Below are positions 28,381 through 31,857 of a stretch of DNA of 32,000 nt, piece after piece. The position numbers and the translations under genes were made by a program. The stretch spans positions 1-32,000 of the forward strand of contig NC_013201.1 of assembly GCF_000023965.1 (NCBI RefSeq). The letters run 5' to 3'. Below the pieces are notes generated by a model. That model ran no database searches, was not told where the DNA came from, and saw nothing but the letters and a program-made list of their open reading frames with translations. Each line of letters begins with the position of its first letter. Position 1 is the stretch's first letter. The DNA comes from Halomicrobium mukohataei DSM 12286. Its GTDB lineage: Archaea; Halobacteriota; Halobacteria; Halobacteriales; Haloarculaceae.

Positions 28381-31300
28381 ATGGGAGGGACACAGCCAGG
28401 AGCGACGCTGGCCGCGAGCGTCGGCATCGAGATCGAGGGCGGCCACTGCGAGCAGTTGCTCTCCCGAGGGCAGTCGCTGCCGGCGTCGGCGACAGAGACC
28501 TTCACGACGGCCGAAGATAACCAGCAGACGGTCCAGATTCGTCTGTTCCAGGGCGATCAGGAACGTGTCGAGGGAAACGAGCTGCTCGGAGAGTGTACGG
28601 TCTCCGGCCTCGTACCTGCCCCCGCGGGCGTGCCGGACGTAGCAGTCACGTTCACCGTCGACAGAGCGGGAGTCCTGCAGGTCTCGGTCCAGAACGGCAC
28701 CGGCGACGCGACACTCCAGATCGAGGGACAGCGTGAGTTCGACGGCGTCGCGGTCGAGACGGCGGGAAGGACCGACGCAGATCCGACCAACGACGTGATA
28801 CTCGGCGTCGATCTGGGGACGACCGCCAGCGTCTGTGCAGTTCCGGTGGACGGCGAGCCCGAAATCGTCGTCAACAGCGAGGGAGACCGTGCGACACCCT
28901 CCGTGCTGTCCGTCGACGACGACGGAACCCTGCTGGTGGGCAAAGCGGCCCGGAAGCGAGCGATCTCTCGACCGGAACAGACCATCGCGTCGGTCAAGCG
29001 TGTCCTCTTGGGCGAGGACGGGACGGTCGAGTTAGGCGAGCGAGAGTACTCGACCGTGGAGCTGGCGGGGATGCTGTTCGAGAAGTTGCGCTCTGACGCC
29101 GAGAGCGCCGTCGGGCGGCCCGTCGAGAAGGCGGTCGTCACCGTCCCCGCGGTGGCGTCGGTTCGCCAGCGGGGCCGCATCGACCGAGCCGGCGAGATCG
29201 CCGGCCTGGAGATCGAACGGACGATCGGCGACGCGGCGGCCGCGGTGATGGGATACGCTTACGGGAGCGACGGAGAACAGACCGTGCTGGTCTGCGATCT
29301 CGGCGGTGGCTCGCTGAGCGTCTCGCTGCTGGACGTGGAGAACGACATCTACGAGATCGTGGCCAACGGCGGAGACGACGAGCTGGGGGGCAACGAGTGG
29401 GACGCGGCGATCGTCGACCACCTCGCCGACCAGTTCGAGGCGGACCACGGCATCGATCTGCGCGAGGACCCACAGGCCCGCAGACGGCTGGCCGACGCAG
29501 CGGCGGCCGCGAAGATCGAACTCGCCTCGCGCGAGCGGACGCGGATCGACGTACCTTACGTCGCGGCGACGGACGACGGCCCGCTGGATCTGAACGCGAC
29601 GCTCACCCGCGATACCGTCGCGTCACTGACCGAACCCCTCGTCGAGCGCGTCGTCGAGTCGGTCAGGGCAGTCCTGTCCGGAAGTCGACACGGCGCGGAC
29701 GACATCGACGAGATCCTCCTCGTCGGCGGCGCGAGCCGGCTCCCGCAGGTCCGAAACAGAATCGAGACGCTGGTCGGACAGCAGACGGCCAGACGCGTCA
29801 ACGAGGAGGTCACCGCACTCGGGACGGCCGTGCAGGCGGGCATCCTCTCGGGCGCGGTCGACGACGTGGTGTTGCTGGACGTGACCTCACTGTCGCTGGG
29901 CATCGCGGTCGAGGGCGGTGGGTTCGAGCGCATCGTCGAGCGAGGCGAGACCATCCCCACCGTCGAGTCAGTGGAGTTCACCACGACGGTGGACGACCAG
30001 ACGGCGGTGCCGATACGGGTGTTCCAGGGCGAACACGAAACCGCCACACGGAACGAGTTGCTCGCCGAGTTCGTACTGACCGACGTGCCGCCGACCTCGG
30101 CCGGGACGCCGGCGATCGAGGTCACGGTGAGCATCGACGAGAACCGGTGGATCAACGTCGAGGCAGACCACGACGGCGACAGTGAAGCGATCACGATCGA
30201 TCCCGCGACGGAGCGATCGCTGCGGGATGGAACGAGACGCCAGTCCGAGCAGGAACGGCCCGCACCCCGACTGGTTACCACTCGGGACGAAGACGAGGCG
30301 ACGGCATCCGACGAAAGCCCGGAGACGAGCGCCGCGAGGGATCTGGAGACGCTGATCGACGAGGCCCTCGACGTACGCAACCAGCTCCATCGTGGCGTCC
30401 TCTACTGTCGCCGGTCGATCGACAACGAGGTGGCGGATCTCCGCGACAACCTCGAAAAGACGACCCGAAACATCGAGTCGATCGTCGGGACGAACACGGA
30501 GAGCGCGGACAAACGCGACGAGGACGGCGAGGAGGTGGGCGACCGGCTCGTCGGCGAGCTGGCGGCCGTCGAGGACTCGCTGCGGGCACTGCTCGACGAG
30601 GACACGTCGACGGGGCTGGCGTTCGACGACCTCGAAGCGCTGGTCGACCGGATCGACCGCGGGCTCGAAGCGGCGGGACTCGTGCTCGTCGATCCCGACG
30701 GCGGGGCCGAGACGGACCCGTACCGCCATCGAGTGGTCTCCTCAACAGAGAGCTCCGTCCCGGAGGGGCGAATCGTCTCCGTCCAGCAGATCGGATACGA
30801 GCGCGACGGTGCGGTGTGCCGGGAGGCGACGGTGGTCGTCAGCGCCGGTTCTCCAGCGGAACGTGTCACAGCGGCCACGGGGCAGACCGATCCCGACCGG
30901 TCGGGCGATACACTCGATCGAGCGATCAGAGACGCACGCGCCCCGGCCGTCGAGCAGTTCCCGAGCCCACCACGACGGTCGGTGAGCTACGAGGACTTCG
31001 AGATCAGCGCGACGCTGGGAACCGGCGGCCAGGCAGTCGTGTACGAGACGACCCACCCGGCGATCGAGTCGCCGGCCCGGATCGCGCTAAAAGAACCGGC
31101 TCGCGGCGAGCGGACCCTGACACACGACGCGATCAGTTCGTTTCTACAGCGGGCACAGACGTGGCGGACCGTCGACGACCGCGAGCGAGAGAGTCGCCGG
31201 TGGCGCTCCCACGAGTACATCGTCGGCGTCGTCGACGTCGGGGACACCCGACCGTGGATCGCCATGGAGTACATGGACGGCGGTGACCTCGCCGAGCGAC

Positions 31301-31857
31301 TCGACGGCACCGAGGGGCTGCCGGTCGAGGAGGCCGTGTGGATCGGACAGTGTCTCTGCCGCGCGCTCGAAGTCGCACACGAGTACGGGATCGCCCACCT
31401 GGACATCAAGCCGGGGAACGTCCTCTTCACCGAAACGACACCGTCACGCTGGGACCTGCCGAAGCTCGCCGACTGGGGCCTCGCGAGAAAGCTGCTGGAC
31501 CGAGCCGACTCGATGGAAGGCTTCTCCCGACACTTCGCCGCGCCCGAACAGTTCGACGCCGAGACCTTCGGCGAACCGGACGCCGTCACGGACATCTACC
31601 AGGTCGGCGCTGTGCTGTACGCGATGCTACGCGGCGAGCCACCCGTGAGCGGCGGCCGCCTCGCCGTCCGCAAGCGAATCGTCCGCGACGACGGGCCACC
31701 GCCAGCCCCGAGTGCCGATCGTGACGACGTGCCGCCCGAACTCGACGAGATCGTACGCACGGCGCTGGCGACGGCAAAACGGGATCGGTACGAATCGATC
31801 CGGTATCTGCGAGACGATCTGGAAGCCCTGTGGAAGTCGCCGGACGATACCGTCTAG
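28381..31857 (+). CDS. Multidomain fusion: Hsp70 SBD-beta + Hsp70 (NBD + SBD-beta) + GrpE-like module + Hanks-type Ser/Thr protein kinase
   Basis: Single 1158-aa ORF. Domains in order:
- aa 10-116, SBD-beta: FTTAEDNQQTVQIRLFQGD, GLVPAPAGVPDVAVTFTVDRAGVLQVS.
- aa 138-492, Hsp70 ATPase: ILGVDLGTTAS, CDLGGGSLSVS, ILLVGGASRLPQV.
- Interdomain linker VVLLDVTSLSLGI, then a second SBD-beta (aa 496-608).
- aa ~725-822, GrpE-like: LAAVEDSLRALL...GLVLVDPDGGAETDPYRHRVV...GRIVSVQQIGYERDGAVCREATVVV.
- aa 868-1150, kinase: LGTGGQAVVY, IALK, HLDIKPGN, DWG, FAAPEQ.

The reading frame was checked at nt 31090 (AAA = K904), 31402 (GAC = D1008) and 31471 (GAC TGG GGC). Confidence 0.85.
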   Translation: MGGTQPGATLAASVGIEIEGGHCEQLLSRGQSLPASATETFTTAEDNQQTVQIRLFQGDQERVEGNELLGECTVSGLVPAPAGVPDVAVTFTVDRAGVLQVSVQNGTGDATLQIEGQREFDGVAVETAGRTDADPTNDVILGVDLGTTASVCAVPVDGEPEIVVNSEGDRATPSVLSVDDDGTLLVGKAARKRAISRPEQTIASVKRVLLGEDGTVELGEREYSTVELAGMLFEKLRSDAESAVGRPVEKAVVTVPAVASVRQRGRIDRAGEIAGLEIERTIGDAAAAVMGYAYGSDGEQTVLVCDLGGGSLSVSLLDVENDIYEIVANGGDDELGGNEWDAAIVDHLADQFEADHGIDLREDPQARRRLADAAAAAKIELASRERTRIDVPYVAATDDGPLDLNATLTRDTVASLTEPLVERVVESVRAVLSGSRHGADDIDEILLVGGASRLPQVRNRIETLVGQQTARRVNEEVTALGTAVQAGILSGAVDDVVLLDVTSLSLGIAVEGGGFERIVERGETIPTVESVEFTTTVDDQTAVPIRVFQGEHETATRNELLAEFVLTDVPPTSAGTPAIEVTVSIDENRWINVEADHDGDSEAITIDPATERSLRDGTRRQSEQERPAPRLVTTRDEDEATASDESPETSAARDLETLIDEALDVRNQLHRGVLYCRRSIDNEVADLRDNLEKTTRNIESIVGTNTESADKRDEDGEEVGDRLVGELAAVEDSLRALLDEDTSTGLAFDDLEALVDRIDRGLEAAGLVLVDPDGGAETDPYRHRVVSSTESSVPEGRIVSVQQIGYERDGAVCREATVVVSAGSPAERVTAATGQTDPDRSGDTLDRAIRDARAPAVEQFPSPPRRSVSYEDFEISATLGTGGQAVVYETTHPAIESPARIALKEPARGERTLTHDAISSFLQRAQTWRTVDDRERESRRWRSHEYIVGVVDVGDTRPWIAMEYMDGGDLAERLDGTEGLPVEEAVWIGQCLCRALEVAHEYGIAHLDIKPGNVLFTETTPSRWDLPKLADWGLARKLLDRADSMEGFSRHFAAPEQFDAETFGEPDAVTDIYQVGAVLYAMLRGEPPVSGGRLAVRKRIVRDDGPPPAPSADRDDVPPELDEIVRTALATAKRDRYESIRYLRDDLEALWKSPDDTV

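What the first reader, a model, noticed from the sequence alone, without database searches (positions are those of the whole stretch)
28381..31857. One polypeptide combining Hsp70, its exchange factor GrpE and a Ser/Thr kinase, directly abutting a CRISPR array
A single uninterrupted 1158-aa ORF encodes five parts in order:
1. An Hsp70 substrate-binding beta-domain.
2. A complete Hsp70 ATPase domain with phosphate-1, phosphate-2 and adenosine motifs.
3. The conserved interdomain linker and a second substrate-binding beta-domain, with no helical lid.
4. An acidic coiled-coil segment followed by a GrpE-type module. Its C-terminal signature is G..V.DP......DP..H..V.......G.IV.V.Q.GY...G...R.A.V.V.
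5. A Hanks-type kinase with glycine loop, VAIK-type Lys, catalytic loop, DFG-like motif and APE motif.

A chaperone, its nucleotide-exchange factor and a kinase output are normally separate proteins, and I know of no characterised protein with this architecture. Fusing them suggests a self-contained client-sensing switch. Polypeptide binding to the SBDs would be coupled, through an intramolecular ATPase/exchange cycle and GrpE-type dimerisation, to kinase activation.

The stop codon shares a base with the terminal repeat of a CRISPR array. That placement makes an antiviral or conflict-system role a reasonable hypothesis, for example sensing viral proteins and triggering phospho-signalling or abortive infection. 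It remains unproven.
Basis: partly seen in the sequence, partly recalled or inferred. Interest (0 to 1): 0.9.

Follow-up and report, generated by a model that had tools for sequence, protein, structure and literature searches.

The report
Chaperone-GrpE-kinase fusion protein in haloarchaea
A salt-loving archaeon carries one real 1158-residue protein that joins a worn-down copy of the Hsp70 chaperone, its partner GrpE and a signalling kinase; it belongs to a small uncharacterised family found in kinase/phosphatase gene clusters, and its contact with a CRISPR array looks incidental.

Summary
Window 28381-31857 (+) is an intact 1158-aa gene of the 222-kb Halomicrobium mukohataei plasmid. It encodes SBDβ, Hsp70 NBD, SBDβ, a GrpE-like module and a Hanks kinase. 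Its stop codon shares a base with the degenerate last repeat of a 45-repeat CRISPR array. The same fusion is found in three Halomicrobium genomes and in at least seven more divergent metagenomic protein clusters, so it is not an artefact.

- Every fused member has lost at least one Hsp70 catalytic residue; in this protein K70R, E171D and D201S. The peptide pockets of both SBDβ copies are kept. A canonical ATPase/exchange cycle is therefore doubtful, and polypeptide binding looks like the selected function.
- CRISPR adjacency is confined to the syntenic Halomicrobium loci. No cas gene is annotated on the plasmid.
- Distant homologues sit among other multidomain Ser/Thr kinases (PQQ, HEAT, EF-Tu-domain fusions) and a PP2C phosphatase.

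Best reading: a polypeptide-binding, nucleotide-gated, probably dimeric input module that drives a kinase within a plasmid-borne kinase/phosphatase network. An antiviral bait role is not excluded. I found no description of this fusion in the literature searched; RefSeq names it "GrpE".

The parts
28381..31857 (+). Whole gene, 1158 aa plus TAG stop. It is WP_012807418.1 of the H. mukohataei JP60 plasmid NZ_CP039376.1, which RefSeq annotates as 'nucleotide exchange factor GrpE'.
28411..28725 (+). N-terminal extra Hsp70 substrate-binding β-domain (residues 11-115). Pocket residues I401, F426, A429, Q433, V436 and I438 (E. coli DnaK numbering) are kept.
28726..28794 (+). Disordered linker, residues 116-138.
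   Evidence: pLDDT below 50 for 121-137; dN/dS above 1
28795..29865 (+). Hsp70 nucleotide-binding domain, residues 139-495. The phosphate-1 (DLGTT), phosphate-2 (DLGGG) and adenosine (GGASRLP) motifs and the 'EGDR' segment (E. coli DnaK ~31-34) are kept. K70R, E171D, T199S, D201S, Y145V and D148V are substituted.
29866..30204 (+). Conserved interdomain linker (VDDVVLLDVT) and second SBDβ, residues 496-608. No α-helical lid follows.
30205..30321 (+). Acidic, disordered tether, residues 609-647.
   Evidence: pLDDT below 50; fast-evolving
30322..30672 (+). Helical part of the GrpE-like module, residues 648-764. Four predicted helices.
30673..30846 (+). GrpE-like C-terminal β-domain, residues 765-822, carrying the DPxxH and GYxxxG..R.A.V.V motifs. 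With the kinase it is the most constrained module (dN/dS 0.10-0.18).
30847..30975 (+). Linker ending in the family-wide 'SPPRRxxxYEDF' motif that precedes the kinase, residues 823-865.
30976..31836 (+). Hanks-type Ser/Thr kinase domain, residues 866-1152. It has the glycine loop GTGGQAVV, K904, HLD1008IKPGN, D1031WG and APE. The αC Glu is not identifiable (Q923/R924).
31857..31884 (-). Degenerate terminal (leader-distal) CRISPR repeat. It overlaps the last base of the stop codon.
31920..32000 (-). First perfect 30-nt CRISPR repeat (31920-31949), one spacer, and the start of the next repeat (31986-32000, cut by the window end). The array continues for 45 repeats in the source replicon.

Best explanation
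The gene encodes a modular signalling kinase. Its input domain is a repurposed, lid-less and catalytically degenerate DnaK paralogue with two peptide-binding β-domains, joined to a GrpE-like module.

Proposed mechanism.
1. Each chain has two SBDβ pockets that bind extended or unfolded polypeptide. (Pocket conservation is shown; binding is inferred.)
2. The NBD still binds nucleotide but hydrolyses it poorly. It therefore acts as a nucleotide-gated conformational switch, working through the conserved interdomain linker, and not as a cycling motor. (The substitutions are shown; their consequence is inferred from what I recall of DnaK/Hsc70 mutant studies.)
3. The GrpE-like module is tethered by about 40 disordered residues. 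It dimerises through its helices as GrpE does, and docks on an Hsp70 NBD in cis or in trans. This biases the NBD towards the open, nucleotide-poor, client-holding state. (Inferred.)
4. A dimer carrying four SBDβ binds clients, which brings kinase domains together or re-orients them. The kinase then autophosphorylates and phosphorylates targets. (Inferred.)
5. A PP2C phosphatase encoded in the same gene clusters resets the system. (Co-occurrence is shown; the function is inferred.)

Wider setting. The protein is one member of an expanded haloarchaeal kinase family. In that family the same kinase is fused to many alternative binding modules: PQQ propeller, HEAT, FtsZ/CetZ, CspA, DnaJ C-terminal domain, EF-Tu domains 2/3, HTH and others. 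On this plasmid at least 11 such kinases sit together.

In logic the protein resembles BiP-controlled IRE1/PERK signalling, compressed into one chain. The neighbouring CRISPR array is incidental.
For: - Architecture and fold.
- Family conservation. The Hsp70+GrpE+kinase fusion occurs in three Halomicrobium genomes and in P0264, P0121, P0265, P0122-P0125 and P0266. There are also Hsp70+kinase (P0037, P0126), GrpE+kinase+PQQ (P0017) and kinase+DnaJ_C (P0012) variants.
- Catalytic Hsp70 residues are degenerate in all 13 fused members and invariant in 5 canonical haloarchaeal DnaKs.
- Peptide-pocket residues are kept in both SBDβ copies across the family.
- The extra SBDβ has been gained at different positions: N-terminal in this protein and P0121, in tandem after the first SBDβ in P0123, P0124 and P0266. 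This suggests selection for more client-binding sites.
- Constraint is strongest on the kinase (dN/dS 0.07-0.19) and the GrpE β-domain (0.10-0.18). It is relaxed on the NBD (0.33-0.59).
- The kinase catalytic residues are conserved.
- Context. Other multidomain kinases and PP2C flank distant homologues. The H. mukohataei plasmid has at least 11 kinases and one PP2C. The PP2C plus ~670-aa plus ~185-aa gene trio recurs in L012, partly in L013, and on the plasmid.
Against: - There are no biochemical or genetic data for any member.
- K70R and E171D are conservative changes, so residual ATPase activity in this particular protein cannot be excluded.
- The E. coli GrpE R183 position, which I recall as a DnaK-binding hot spot, is Ala here (alignment). 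NCBIfam GrpE equivalog scores are far below their cut-offs. Exchange-factor activity is therefore uncertain.
- The αC Glu of the kinase is missing in the Halomicrobium orthologues (Q923/R924). This could lower or change kinase regulation.
- The AF2 full-length pTM of 0.42 says nothing reliable about inter-domain contacts.
- The stress-signalling role is not distinguished from an antiviral role by any result here.
Confidence: 0.4

Rival explanations
1. Antiviral bait (integrated-decoy) kinase. The fused DnaK/GrpE copy mimics the host chaperone system. A viral protein that hijacks or inhibits DnaK-GrpE binds the bait and switches on the kinase. The kinase then phosphorylates host or viral targets and aborts or limits infection, in the manner of Stk2 or PD-T4-6 kinases.
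For: - The family fuses the same kinase to copies of core host proteins: Hsp70, GrpE, DnaJ_C, FtsZ/CetZ, CspA, EF-Tu D2/D3, NAC and S1.
- The Hsp70 module lacks catalytic residues while keeping its overall fold and binding pockets.
- Distribution is patchy and accessory. Only one hit was found among one genome for each of 185,579 species, using narrow patterns.
- The gene lies on a plasmid next to a CRISPR array, a MazE/PIN pair, Mrr-type nucleases, transposases, TnpB, Fic and MoxR-vWA genes.
- The central Hsp70 block has a mosaic history: dS 0.53 against 0.03-0.16 in the flanks.
- The kinase domain matches PADLOC PD-T4-6 and MADS6 models.
- Hsp70, GrpE and tubulin modules have been predicted in bacterial conflict systems (PMC7159879; PMC11090510).
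Against: - The PADLOC hits are generic kinase-domain matches. Neighbouring ordinary kinases score the same.
- The left flank is housekeeping-like: rRNA operon, SufB, SOD, copper ATPase.
- Kinase-FtsZ fusions keep the GTP-binding signature, so there is no general 'dead decoy' pattern.
- No relative was found in viral contigs.
- No infection data exist, and no haloviral protein known to target DnaK/GrpE was looked for.
Confidence: 0.2
2. Trans-targeting regulator of the host chaperone system. The GrpE-like and Hsp70 modules mainly tether the kinase to the cell's own DnaK, GrpE, DnaJ and their clients, through GrpE-DnaK binding and GrpE heterodimerisation. The kinase then phosphorylates the chaperones or their clients. 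The other fusions (FtsZ, EF-Tu domains, CspA) would tether sister kinases to their respective machineries in the same way.
For: - GrpE+kinase+PQQ without Hsp70 (P0017) and kinase+DnaJ_C (P0012) exist, so the co-chaperone modules are used independently of a cis Hsp70.
- The fused Hsp70 is most similar to haloarchaeal DnaK, at 45-56% identity.
- The GrpE β-domain is highly constrained.
Against: - A cis Hsp70 NBD that keeps the 'EGDR' segment is present in most members. I recall that segment (E. coli DnaK ~28-33, with G32) as needed for stable GrpE binding. A cis partner is therefore the simpler reading.
- The kinase of P0017 lacks the catalytic Asp (HHSLEPG).
- No interaction data exist.
Confidence: 0.2
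3. A self-contained chaperone machine. The NBD hydrolyses ATP, the cis GrpE accelerates ADP release, and the cycle is coupled to kinase activation.
For: - The nucleotide-binding loops, the interdomain linker and the 'EGDR' segment (E. coli DnaK ~31-34) are present.
- In this protein the K70R and E171D changes are conservative.
Against: - Across the family K70 is R, A, E, T, V or S; E171 is D, A or N; D201 is S in most members.
- There is no lid.
- The J-domain-site residues Y145 and D148 are lost in the Halomicrobium branch.
- The protein scores below the NCBIfam DnaK equivalog cut-offs, 559.6 against 648.
- NBD dN/dS is 0.33-0.59.
Confidence: 0.08
4. A CRISPR-associated accessory protein that is functionally tied to the adjacent array.
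For: The stop codon overlaps the terminal repeat in H. mukohataei. The same adjacency is seen in LC1Hm and H. katesii.
Against: - The three loci are syntenic orthologues within one genus, so they count as one event.
- The gene abuts the leader-distal end of the array.
- No cas gene lies within reach or is annotated anywhere on the plasmid.
- Homologues in L009-L015 have no match to this CRISPR repeat and no cas gene among their called neighbours.
Confidence: 0.02

Closest known systems
Canonical DnaK-GrpE chaperone pair (e.g. E. coli 1DKG, Geobacillus 4ANI)
   Same: - NBD plus interdomain linker plus SBDβ, about 45% identical to bacterial and haloarchaeal DnaK.
- The GrpE-like segment has the GrpE fold and the DPxxH / GY...G..R.A.V.V signature.
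   Different: - Everything is in one chain, with a kinase attached.
- There is no helical lid, and there is an extra SBDβ.
- Catalytic residues K70, E171 and D201 are substituted.
- Scores fall below the NCBIfam DnaK and GrpE equivalog cut-offs.
BiP-regulated unfolded-protein-response kinases IRE1/PERK (eukaryotes; compared from general knowledge)
   Same: The logic is shared. An Hsp70 and unfolded polypeptide control the dimerisation and trans-autophosphorylation of a Ser/Thr kinase.
   Different: - In eukaryotes Hsp70 and kinase are separate proteins.
- The sensor domains are not homologous.
- The resemblance is functional and hypothetical only.
Modular bacterial Hanks-type kinases with sensor domains (PknB-PASTA, PknD-propeller) and their PP2C partners
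   Same: - The kinase core motifs are shared, with a best NCBIfam hit to the Stk1/PknB family, below cut-off.
- Co-occurrence with PP2C is shared.
- Sister genes carry PQQ propellers.
   Different: - The protein is cytoplasmic, not transmembrane.
- The input is a chaperone system.
- It has DWG in place of DFG and a family-specific SPPRR motif.
Single-gene defence kinases (PD-T4-6; Stk2 of staphylococci; MADS6)
   Same: The kinase domain matches PADLOC PD-T4-6 (E 4e-44) and mad6 models.
   Different: - The matches are generic to Hanks kinases.
- No Hsp70 or GrpE module was detected by the PADLOC models: all listed hits for this protein fall in its kinase domain.
- The defence phenotype is untested.
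Predicted conflict systems that use Hsp70, GrpE or tubulin: the GTPase-centric systems of Kaur et al. 2020 (PMC7159879) and the CoCoNuT Hsp70-like CnuD (PMC11090510)
   Same: - They use Hsp70 NBD/SBD, GrpE, DnaJ, tubulin, HEAT, CSD and kinase modules.
- The CoCoNuT paper infers that its Hsp70-like CnuD hydrolyses ATP with very low efficiency at best.
- P0266 adds a CetZ/tubulin domain to the present fusion.
   Different: - Those systems are bacterial, multigene, and centred on GTPases or McrBC.
- No such GTPase or McrB gene was seen next to any homologue here.

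Membership tests
Hsp70/DnaK | Actin-fold NBD with phosphate-1, phosphate-2 and adenosine motifs | tested here: met
   Pfam HSP70 E 1.7e-158. DLGTT, DLGGG and GGASRLP are present.
Hsp70/DnaK | Catalytic residues K70, E171, D194, T199, D201 (E. coli numbering) | tested here: not met
   K70R, E171D, T199S and D201S; only D194 is kept. All 13 fused members have at least one change, and 5 canonical haloarchaeal DnaKs have none.
Hsp70/DnaK | Hydrophobic interdomain linker and SBDβ with a peptide pocket | tested here: met
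   The linker VDDVVLLDVT is present. I401, F426, Q433, V436, I438 and I472 (V at 472 in the N-terminal copy) are kept in both SBDβ copies.
Hsp70/DnaK | α-helical lid (SBDα) | tested here: not met
   After the SBDβ, residues 611-646 are disordered. The next helices belong to the GrpE-like module.
Hsp70/DnaK | Score above the NCBIfam DnaK equivalog cut-off | tested here: not met
   559.6 bits against a cut-off of 648; 543.7 against 822.55.
GrpE | Pfam PF01025 above the gathering score | tested here: met
   41.3 bits against 25.8, covering profile positions 23-164 of 165. The homologues also score 24.9-65.8 bits, all but P0123 (24.9) above 25.8.
GrpE | GrpE fold: long helices followed by a small β-domain | tested here: met
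   The AF2 model has pLDDT 75. The 11 best Foldseek PDB matches are all GrpE, from 1dkg_B at E 1.9e-5. TM-scores are low (0.33-0.47) because the helices fold back in the monomer model.
GrpE | NCBIfam GrpE equivalog cut-offs, and the R183 DnaK-contact residue (recalled as a binding hot spot) | tested here: not met
   About 31 bits against cut-offs of 164-231. The position aligned to E. coli R183 is Ala.
GrpE | Homodimerisation and nucleotide-exchange activity on an Hsp70 | not testable with these tools
   This needs biochemistry or a multimer model with coordinates.
Hanks-type Ser/Thr kinase | Pkinase profile, glycine loop, VAIK Lys, HxD catalytic loop, DFG-like Asp and APE | tested here: met
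   Pfam 86.6 bits against 31.7. K904, H1006, D1008, K1010, N1013, D1031 and APE 1054-1056 are conserved across the family.
Hanks-type Ser/Thr kinase | αC-helix Glu pairing with the VAIK Lys | tested here: inconclusive
   The family mostly has E at position 924 (26 of 43 sequences). The Halomicrobium orthologues have Q923/R924/Q926.
CRISPR-Cas associated gene | Recurrent linkage to cas genes or arrays in non-syntenic homologues | tested here: not met
   Adjacency is seen only in three syntenic Halomicrobium loci. No cas gene is annotated on the plasmid. Loci L009-L015 lack the repeat.
Known anti-phage defence systems (PADLOC) | A specific model match beyond a generic domain | tested here: inconclusive
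   Only kinase-domain hits were found (PD-T4-6, mad6, MkoA, PglW). Neighbouring kinases give the same hits.
GTPase-centric Hsp70/GrpE/tubulin conflict systems (Kaur et al. 2020) | A linked DO-GTPase or GAP1-N2 GTPase gene | tested here: not met
   No GTPase appears among the called neighbours with Pfam labels in L001-L015. The family description is taken from PMC7159879.

The most novel reading that the evidence does not exclude
Haloarchaea carry an innate-immunity-like arsenal of 'integrated-bait' kinases. One kinase scaffold is fused to copies of the host proteins that viruses most often subvert: DnaK/GrpE/DnaJ, FtsZ/CetZ, EF-1α domains and CspA. The genes are clustered with a PP2C and a conserved pair of ~670-aa and ~185-aa proteins on secondary replicons. 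The Hsp70-GrpE-kinase would then be a catalytically disabled effigy of the DnaK-GrpE complex that fires the kinase when a viral protein grabs it. This would be a prokaryotic counterpart of plant NLR integrated decoys.
Probability: 0.15. Interest if true: 0.9.

Novelty: new variant of a known kind. Interest (0 to 1): 0.66.

Why it matters
- **Natural single-chain fusion.** A chaperone, its exchange factor and a kinase are normally separate proteins. A conserved natural fusion of all three gives a compact system for asking how Hsp70 conformational states can be read out by a signalling enzyme. In eukaryotes that question is approached only through multi-protein BiP-IRE1/PERK complexes.
- **Hsp70 as a binding or sensing module.** The family retains its peptide pockets while losing catalytic residues. 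This suggests Hsp70 can be repurposed in archaea as a binding or sensing module, much as has been predicted for some bacterial conflict systems.
- **A dense kinase/phosphatase network.** The finding exposes a plasmid-borne Ser/Thr kinase/PP2C network in haloarchaea, with kinases fused to FtsZ, EF-Tu domains, CspA and DnaJ parts. I found no description of it in the literature searched.
- **Annotation.** RefSeq names this 1158-aa kinase fusion 'nucleotide exchange factor GrpE'. That is misleading.

Tried and rejected
- **Word-indexed search with the GrpE segment alone.** It returned nothing, not even the protein itself. The acidic low-complexity words probably swamped the candidate list. One search was wasted.
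- **The search for related loci with three closer sequences.** It found only H. katesii in genome contigs and two short contigs in metagenome contigs. The patterns were narrow, so rarity in cultured genomes is only a lower-bound impression.
- **Viral-contig scan.** No relative was found.
- **PADLOC scans of the protein and its neighbours.** Only generic kinase-domain matches and coiled-coil LmuB noise. I rejected these as evidence for defence.
- **'All fused housekeeping modules are enzymatically dead' (a decoy signature).** Kinase-FtsZ fusions keep the GGGTGxG signature, so I dropped this as a general claim.
- **Full-length AF2 model.** pTM was 0.42 and no coordinates were available, so it could not show whether GrpE docks on the NBD in cis. 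Its Foldseek search returned only DnaK.
- **Literature searches.** I found no paper on this fusion or on the haloarchaeal kinase family.
- **Accession CP039376 without the NZ_ prefix.** Not in the collections.

Full report
**1. Is it there?**

Yes. The ORF listing gives a single ATG-initiated ORF at 28381..31857 (+) of 1158 aa.

Domain evidence:
- Pfam finds HSP70 (E 1.7e-158, three stretches), GrpE (residues 680-821, 41.3 bits against a gathering score of 25.8) and Pkinase (874-1136, 86.6 bits against 31.7) in the one chain.
- Residues 140-623 align end-to-end with Geobacillus DnaK residues 4-487, that is NBD, linker and SBDβ.
- The N-terminal 11-105 is a second SBDβ, 37% identical to the internal one (E 7e-22).

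Structure predictions:
- The full-length AF2 model (pLDDT 74, pTM 0.42) gives these boundaries: β-sandwich 14-114, disordered 121-137, NBD 139-490, β-sandwich 506-606, disordered 611-646, four helices 648-764, a small β-domain 767-821, and kinase 874-1151. No helical lid follows the SBDβ.
- A separate model of residues 640-840 (pLDDT 75) has GrpE structures as its 11 best PDB matches, led by 1dkg_B at E 1.9e-5.

CRISPR claim:
- Rfam CRISPR-DR24 matches 31920-31949 on the minus strand.
- The array runs for 45 repeats in the source replicon.
- A degenerate copy at 31857-31884 matches the consensus at 22 of 28 aligned positions, with a 2-nt deletion. It starts on the G of the TAG stop.
- The repeats read on the minus strand and the degenerate copy is next to the gene. 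The gene therefore abuts the leader-distal end of the array.

**2. Where does it come from, and is it an artefact?**

- The window is part of the 221,861-bp circular plasmid of Halomicrobium mukohataei JP60 (NZ_CP039376.1).
- The gene is WP_012807418.1, which RefSeq annotates as 'grpE: nucleotide exchange factor GrpE'.
- The identical protein is encoded on seven contigs from two NCBI assemblies and three independent SRA assemblies.
- Intact orthologues exist in Halomicrobium sp. LC1Hm (93% nucleotide identity) and H. katesii (83-84% amino-acid identity).
- Whole-gene dN/dS is 0.38-0.42, and every folded domain is below 1.

It is a real, selected gene.

**3. A family, not a one-off.**

An exhaustive HMMER scan of 1.84 billion representative proteins was combined with Pfam scans, a word-indexed search and an alignment.

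| Architecture | Members |
|---|---|
| Hsp70 + GrpE + kinase | P0264, P0121, P0265 (49-55% identical, same N-terminal SBDβ); P0122, P0123, P0124, P0125 (39-46%) |
| CetZ/tubulin + Hsp70 + GrpE + kinase | P0266 (1559 aa) |
| Hsp70 + kinase, no GrpE | P0037, P0126 |
| GrpE + kinase + PQQ propeller | P0017 |
| kinase + DnaJ C-terminal domain | P0012 |

- The extra SBDβ is N-terminal in this protein, P0121, P0264 and P0265. It sits in tandem after the first SBDβ in P0123, P0124 and P0266. It is absent in P0122 and P0125.
- The kinase domain belongs to a large haloarchaeal family marked by an 'SPPRRxxxYEDF' lead-in and DWG in place of DFG.
- Among the 120 best relatives of the C-terminal half, this kinase is fused to PQQ propellers (the most common partner), FtsZ/tubulin, cold-shock domains, HTH, S1, NAC/UBA, HEAT, HhH, plastocyanin-like, ferredoxin and OB domains, among others.

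**4. What state are the modules in?**

Hsp70 NBD. I aligned the 13 fused proteins with five canonical haloarchaeal DnaKs and read the positions of the E. coli catalytic and allosteric residues.
- The canonical proteins are invariant: D8, T11, T12, K70, P143, Y145, D148, R151, E171, D194, T199, D201.
- The window protein has K70R, E171D, T199S, D201S, Y145V and D148V.
- Every fused member has at least one change among K70, E171 and D201. Examples are K70A+E171A in P0124 and P0125, K70E+E171D+D201S in P0037, and K70V+E171N in P0266.
- As I recall the DnaK/Hsc70 mutant literature, K70/K71, E171/E175 and D201/D206 are needed for hydrolysis, and Y145/N147/D148 for J-protein coupling.
- The glycine-rich phosphate loops, the adenosine motif, the interdomain linker and the 'EGDR' segment (E. 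coli DnaK ~31-34) are retained. I recall the loop around residues 28-33, with G32, as needed for stable GrpE binding.

SBDβ. Both copies keep the hydrophobic pocket (I401, F426, Q433, V436, I438, I472) across the family.

Constraint mirrors this:

| Module | dN/dS |
|---|---|
| Kinase | 0.07-0.19 |
| GrpE β-domain | 0.10-0.18 |
| NBD | 0.33-0.59 |
| Linkers | ≥1 in three of four linker comparisons |

The kinase keeps K904, H1006, D1008, K1010, N1013, D1031 and APE. One anomaly: the αC Glu, which is E924 in 26 of 43 relatives, is R924 with Q923 and Q926 in the Halomicrobium proteins.

The GrpE module keeps DPxxH and GY...G..R.A.V.V. However, the position aligned with E. coli R183 is Ala, and the NCBIfam GrpE equivalog scores are far below their cut-offs.

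**5. Context.**

The CRISPR adjacency recurs only in the three Halomicrobium genomes. Their left flanks are also syntenic (MarR and threonine dehydratase), so this counts as one evolutionary event.
- Beyond the array lie MazE/PIN and Orc1/Cdc6 genes and further kinases, but no cas genes.
- No cas gene is annotated anywhere on the plasmid. That gene table is incomplete.

Distant homologues have no array.
- P0265 lies between a HEAT-kinase, a PQQ protein, a kinase-PQQ gene and a kinase fused to EF-Tu domains 2/3. An Mrr nuclease and transposases are nearby.
- P0266 lies between a PP2C phosphatase, a PKD-kinase and a PQQ-kinase.
- P0017 is near a dual-specificity phosphatase.

A divergently transcribed pair of genes, ~663 aa (coiled-coil-rich) and ~185 aa, with no Pfam match, precedes both P0264 and P0266. 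The two copies are 44% and 57% identical.
- Homologues of that pair, with the PP2C in the same arrangement, lie on the H. mukohataei plasmid about 46 kb from the gene. Identities are 31%, 40% and 47%.
- They sit beside another run of kinases: HEAT-kinase, HTH-kinase, HEAT-kinase-PQQ and others.
- In all, the plasmid encodes at least 11 Ser/Thr kinases, one PP2C, a MoxR-vWA-HEAT trio and a thermosome fragment.

The conserved association is therefore with a kinase/phosphatase cluster, not with CRISPR.

The left flank of the gene is housekeeping-like: rRNA operon, SufB, SOD and a copper ATPase.

**6. How it most likely works.**

What is shown:
- a lid-less DnaK paralogue with two intact-looking peptide pockets;
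- degenerate hydrolysis residues;
- a conserved GrpE-fold module on a flexible tether;
- a kinase with a conserved catalytic core;
- membership of a clustered kinase/PP2C family.

What I infer:
- The Hsp70 part is an input module that binds extended polypeptide. It uses nucleotide occupancy as a conformational gate and not as fuel.
- The GrpE module dimerises the protein and holds an NBD open, in cis or across the dimer. This favours the client-holding state.
- A dimer carrying four SBDβ engages clients, which promotes kinase trans-activation.
- The PP2C reverses the signal.

The logic parallels BiP-controlled IRE1/PERK. That comparison comes from general knowledge and is an analogy, not homology. 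I put this reading at about 0.4.

Rivals:
- A bait or integrated-decoy antiviral kinase, about 0.2. It is attractive because the family fuses copies of core host proteins, the Hsp70 is catalytically degraded, the genes are accessory and lie on a plasmid near mobile and defence-type genes, and the central Hsp70 block has a mosaic history. But the PADLOC hits are generic, FtsZ fusions keep their GTP signature, and no viral relatives were found.
- A kinase tethered in trans to the host DnaK system, about 0.2.
- A true cycling chaperone, about 0.08.
- A CRISPR accessory protein, about 0.02.

**7. Comparison with what is known.**

- The protein is not a member of the DnaK or GrpE equivalog families. 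It falls below the NCBIfam cut-offs, its catalytic residues are not conserved and it has no lid. It clearly descends from both.
- It is a Hanks-type kinase by profile and motifs.
- Predicted bacterial conflict systems use Hsp70, GrpE, DnaJ, tubulin and kinases as separate genes around GTPases (PMC7159879). CoCoNuT systems fuse an Hsp70-like NBD/SBD, inferred to hydrolyse ATP very poorly, to McrB/McrC homologues (PMC11090510). No such GTPase or McrBC genes accompany the present family.
- I found no paper that mentions this protein, this fusion, or the haloarchaeal kinase family. The library searched is incomplete.

**8. Verdict.**

A client-sensing kinase is plausible. A cycling ATPase/exchange engine and a CRISPR link are not supported.
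- Novelty: a new variant of a known kind, namely a modular Hanks kinase with an unprecedented chaperone-derived input module, inside a kinase/PP2C cluster for which I found no description.
- Interest: 0.66.

Noticed in passing
window 28795-30204 compared with L008 (H. katesii) 8039-11518: The divergence is mosaic. Between H. mukohataei and H. katesii, dS is 0.025 in the N-terminal SBDβ and 0.09-0.16 in the GrpE and kinase parts. It is 0.53 in the central NBD+SBDβ block and 1.16 in the acidic linker. The central Hsp70 block seems to have a different history, through recombination or gene conversion.
   Followed up: partly
NZ_CP039376.1 67094-72645, 106916-126596 and 130339-132873 (L006, L016, L017): The 222-kb plasmid carries at least 11 Ser/Thr kinase genes: several HEAT-kinases, kinase-PQQ, HEAT-kinase-PQQ, HTH-kinase and short kinases. 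It also carries one PP2C phosphatase. This is an unusually dense kinase complement for one replicon.
   Followed up: partly
L012 1529-7853; L013 649-3209; L016 27175-30690 (plasmid 102174-105689): A conserved gene set accompanies the fusion family: a PP2C phosphatase, a ~663-689-aa coiled-coil-rich protein and a ~180-190-aa protein. The last two have no Pfam match. The set lies next to P0266 and P0264 (the PP2C is not visible on the short P0264 contig). On the Halomicrobium plasmid it lies 46 kb from the gene.
   Followed up: partly
L006 39096-43477, continuing in L016 1-5188 (plasmid 72895-80187): A MoxR-type AAA ATPase, a vWA protein and a 1485-aa HEAT-repeat protein lie directly after the HEAT-kinase and kinase-PQQ genes. 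The MoxR gives a weak match to Pfam bpMoxR, the model for 'MoxR-vWA-β-propeller ternary systems'.
   Followed up: no
L009 16889-19420: A kinase of the same family is fused to EF-Tu/eEF1A domains 2 and 3, with no GTPase-domain family among the listed Pfam hits. It lies beside the P0265 homologue (precomputed Pfam).
   Followed up: no
L016 42863-43696 (plasmid 117859-118695): A 278-aa gene encodes only a C-terminal fragment of a thermosome (Cpn60_TCP1 profile positions 349-473 of 490). It overlaps the end of a kinase gene. This is another chaperone-derived piece in the kinase cluster.
   Followed up: no
window 12513-17504 (-): A complete archaeal rRNA operon (16S, 23S, 5S) lies on this 222-kb 'plasmid'. 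The replicon therefore behaves more like a minichromosome.
   Followed up: no
window 21108-21302: There are about 2.4 tandem copies of an 81-nt unit, 91-98% identical. Each unit contains the inverted repeat TGCGGGCTGTCGGC...GCCGACAGCCCGCA. The repeats lie in the intergenic region between an HTH_10 regulator gene and a P-type ATPase gene.
   Followed up: no
window 10413-11216: A 300-nt direct repeat spaced 504 nt apart (78% identity) lies inside the polysaccharide lyase family 8 gene. It is probably an internal domain duplication.
   Followed up: no
window 28381-31857: The public names for this protein are misleading. RefSeq calls it 'nucleotide exchange factor GrpE', UniRef 'Heat shock protein 70', and JGI calls homologues 'molecular chaperone DnaK'. 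None of them mentions the kinase.
   Followed up: yes
L015 615-3326 (P0017): The GrpE+kinase+PQQ relative has HHSLEPG in place of HLDxKPxN, so the catalytic Asp and Lys are lost. It is probably a pseudokinase.
   Followed up: no
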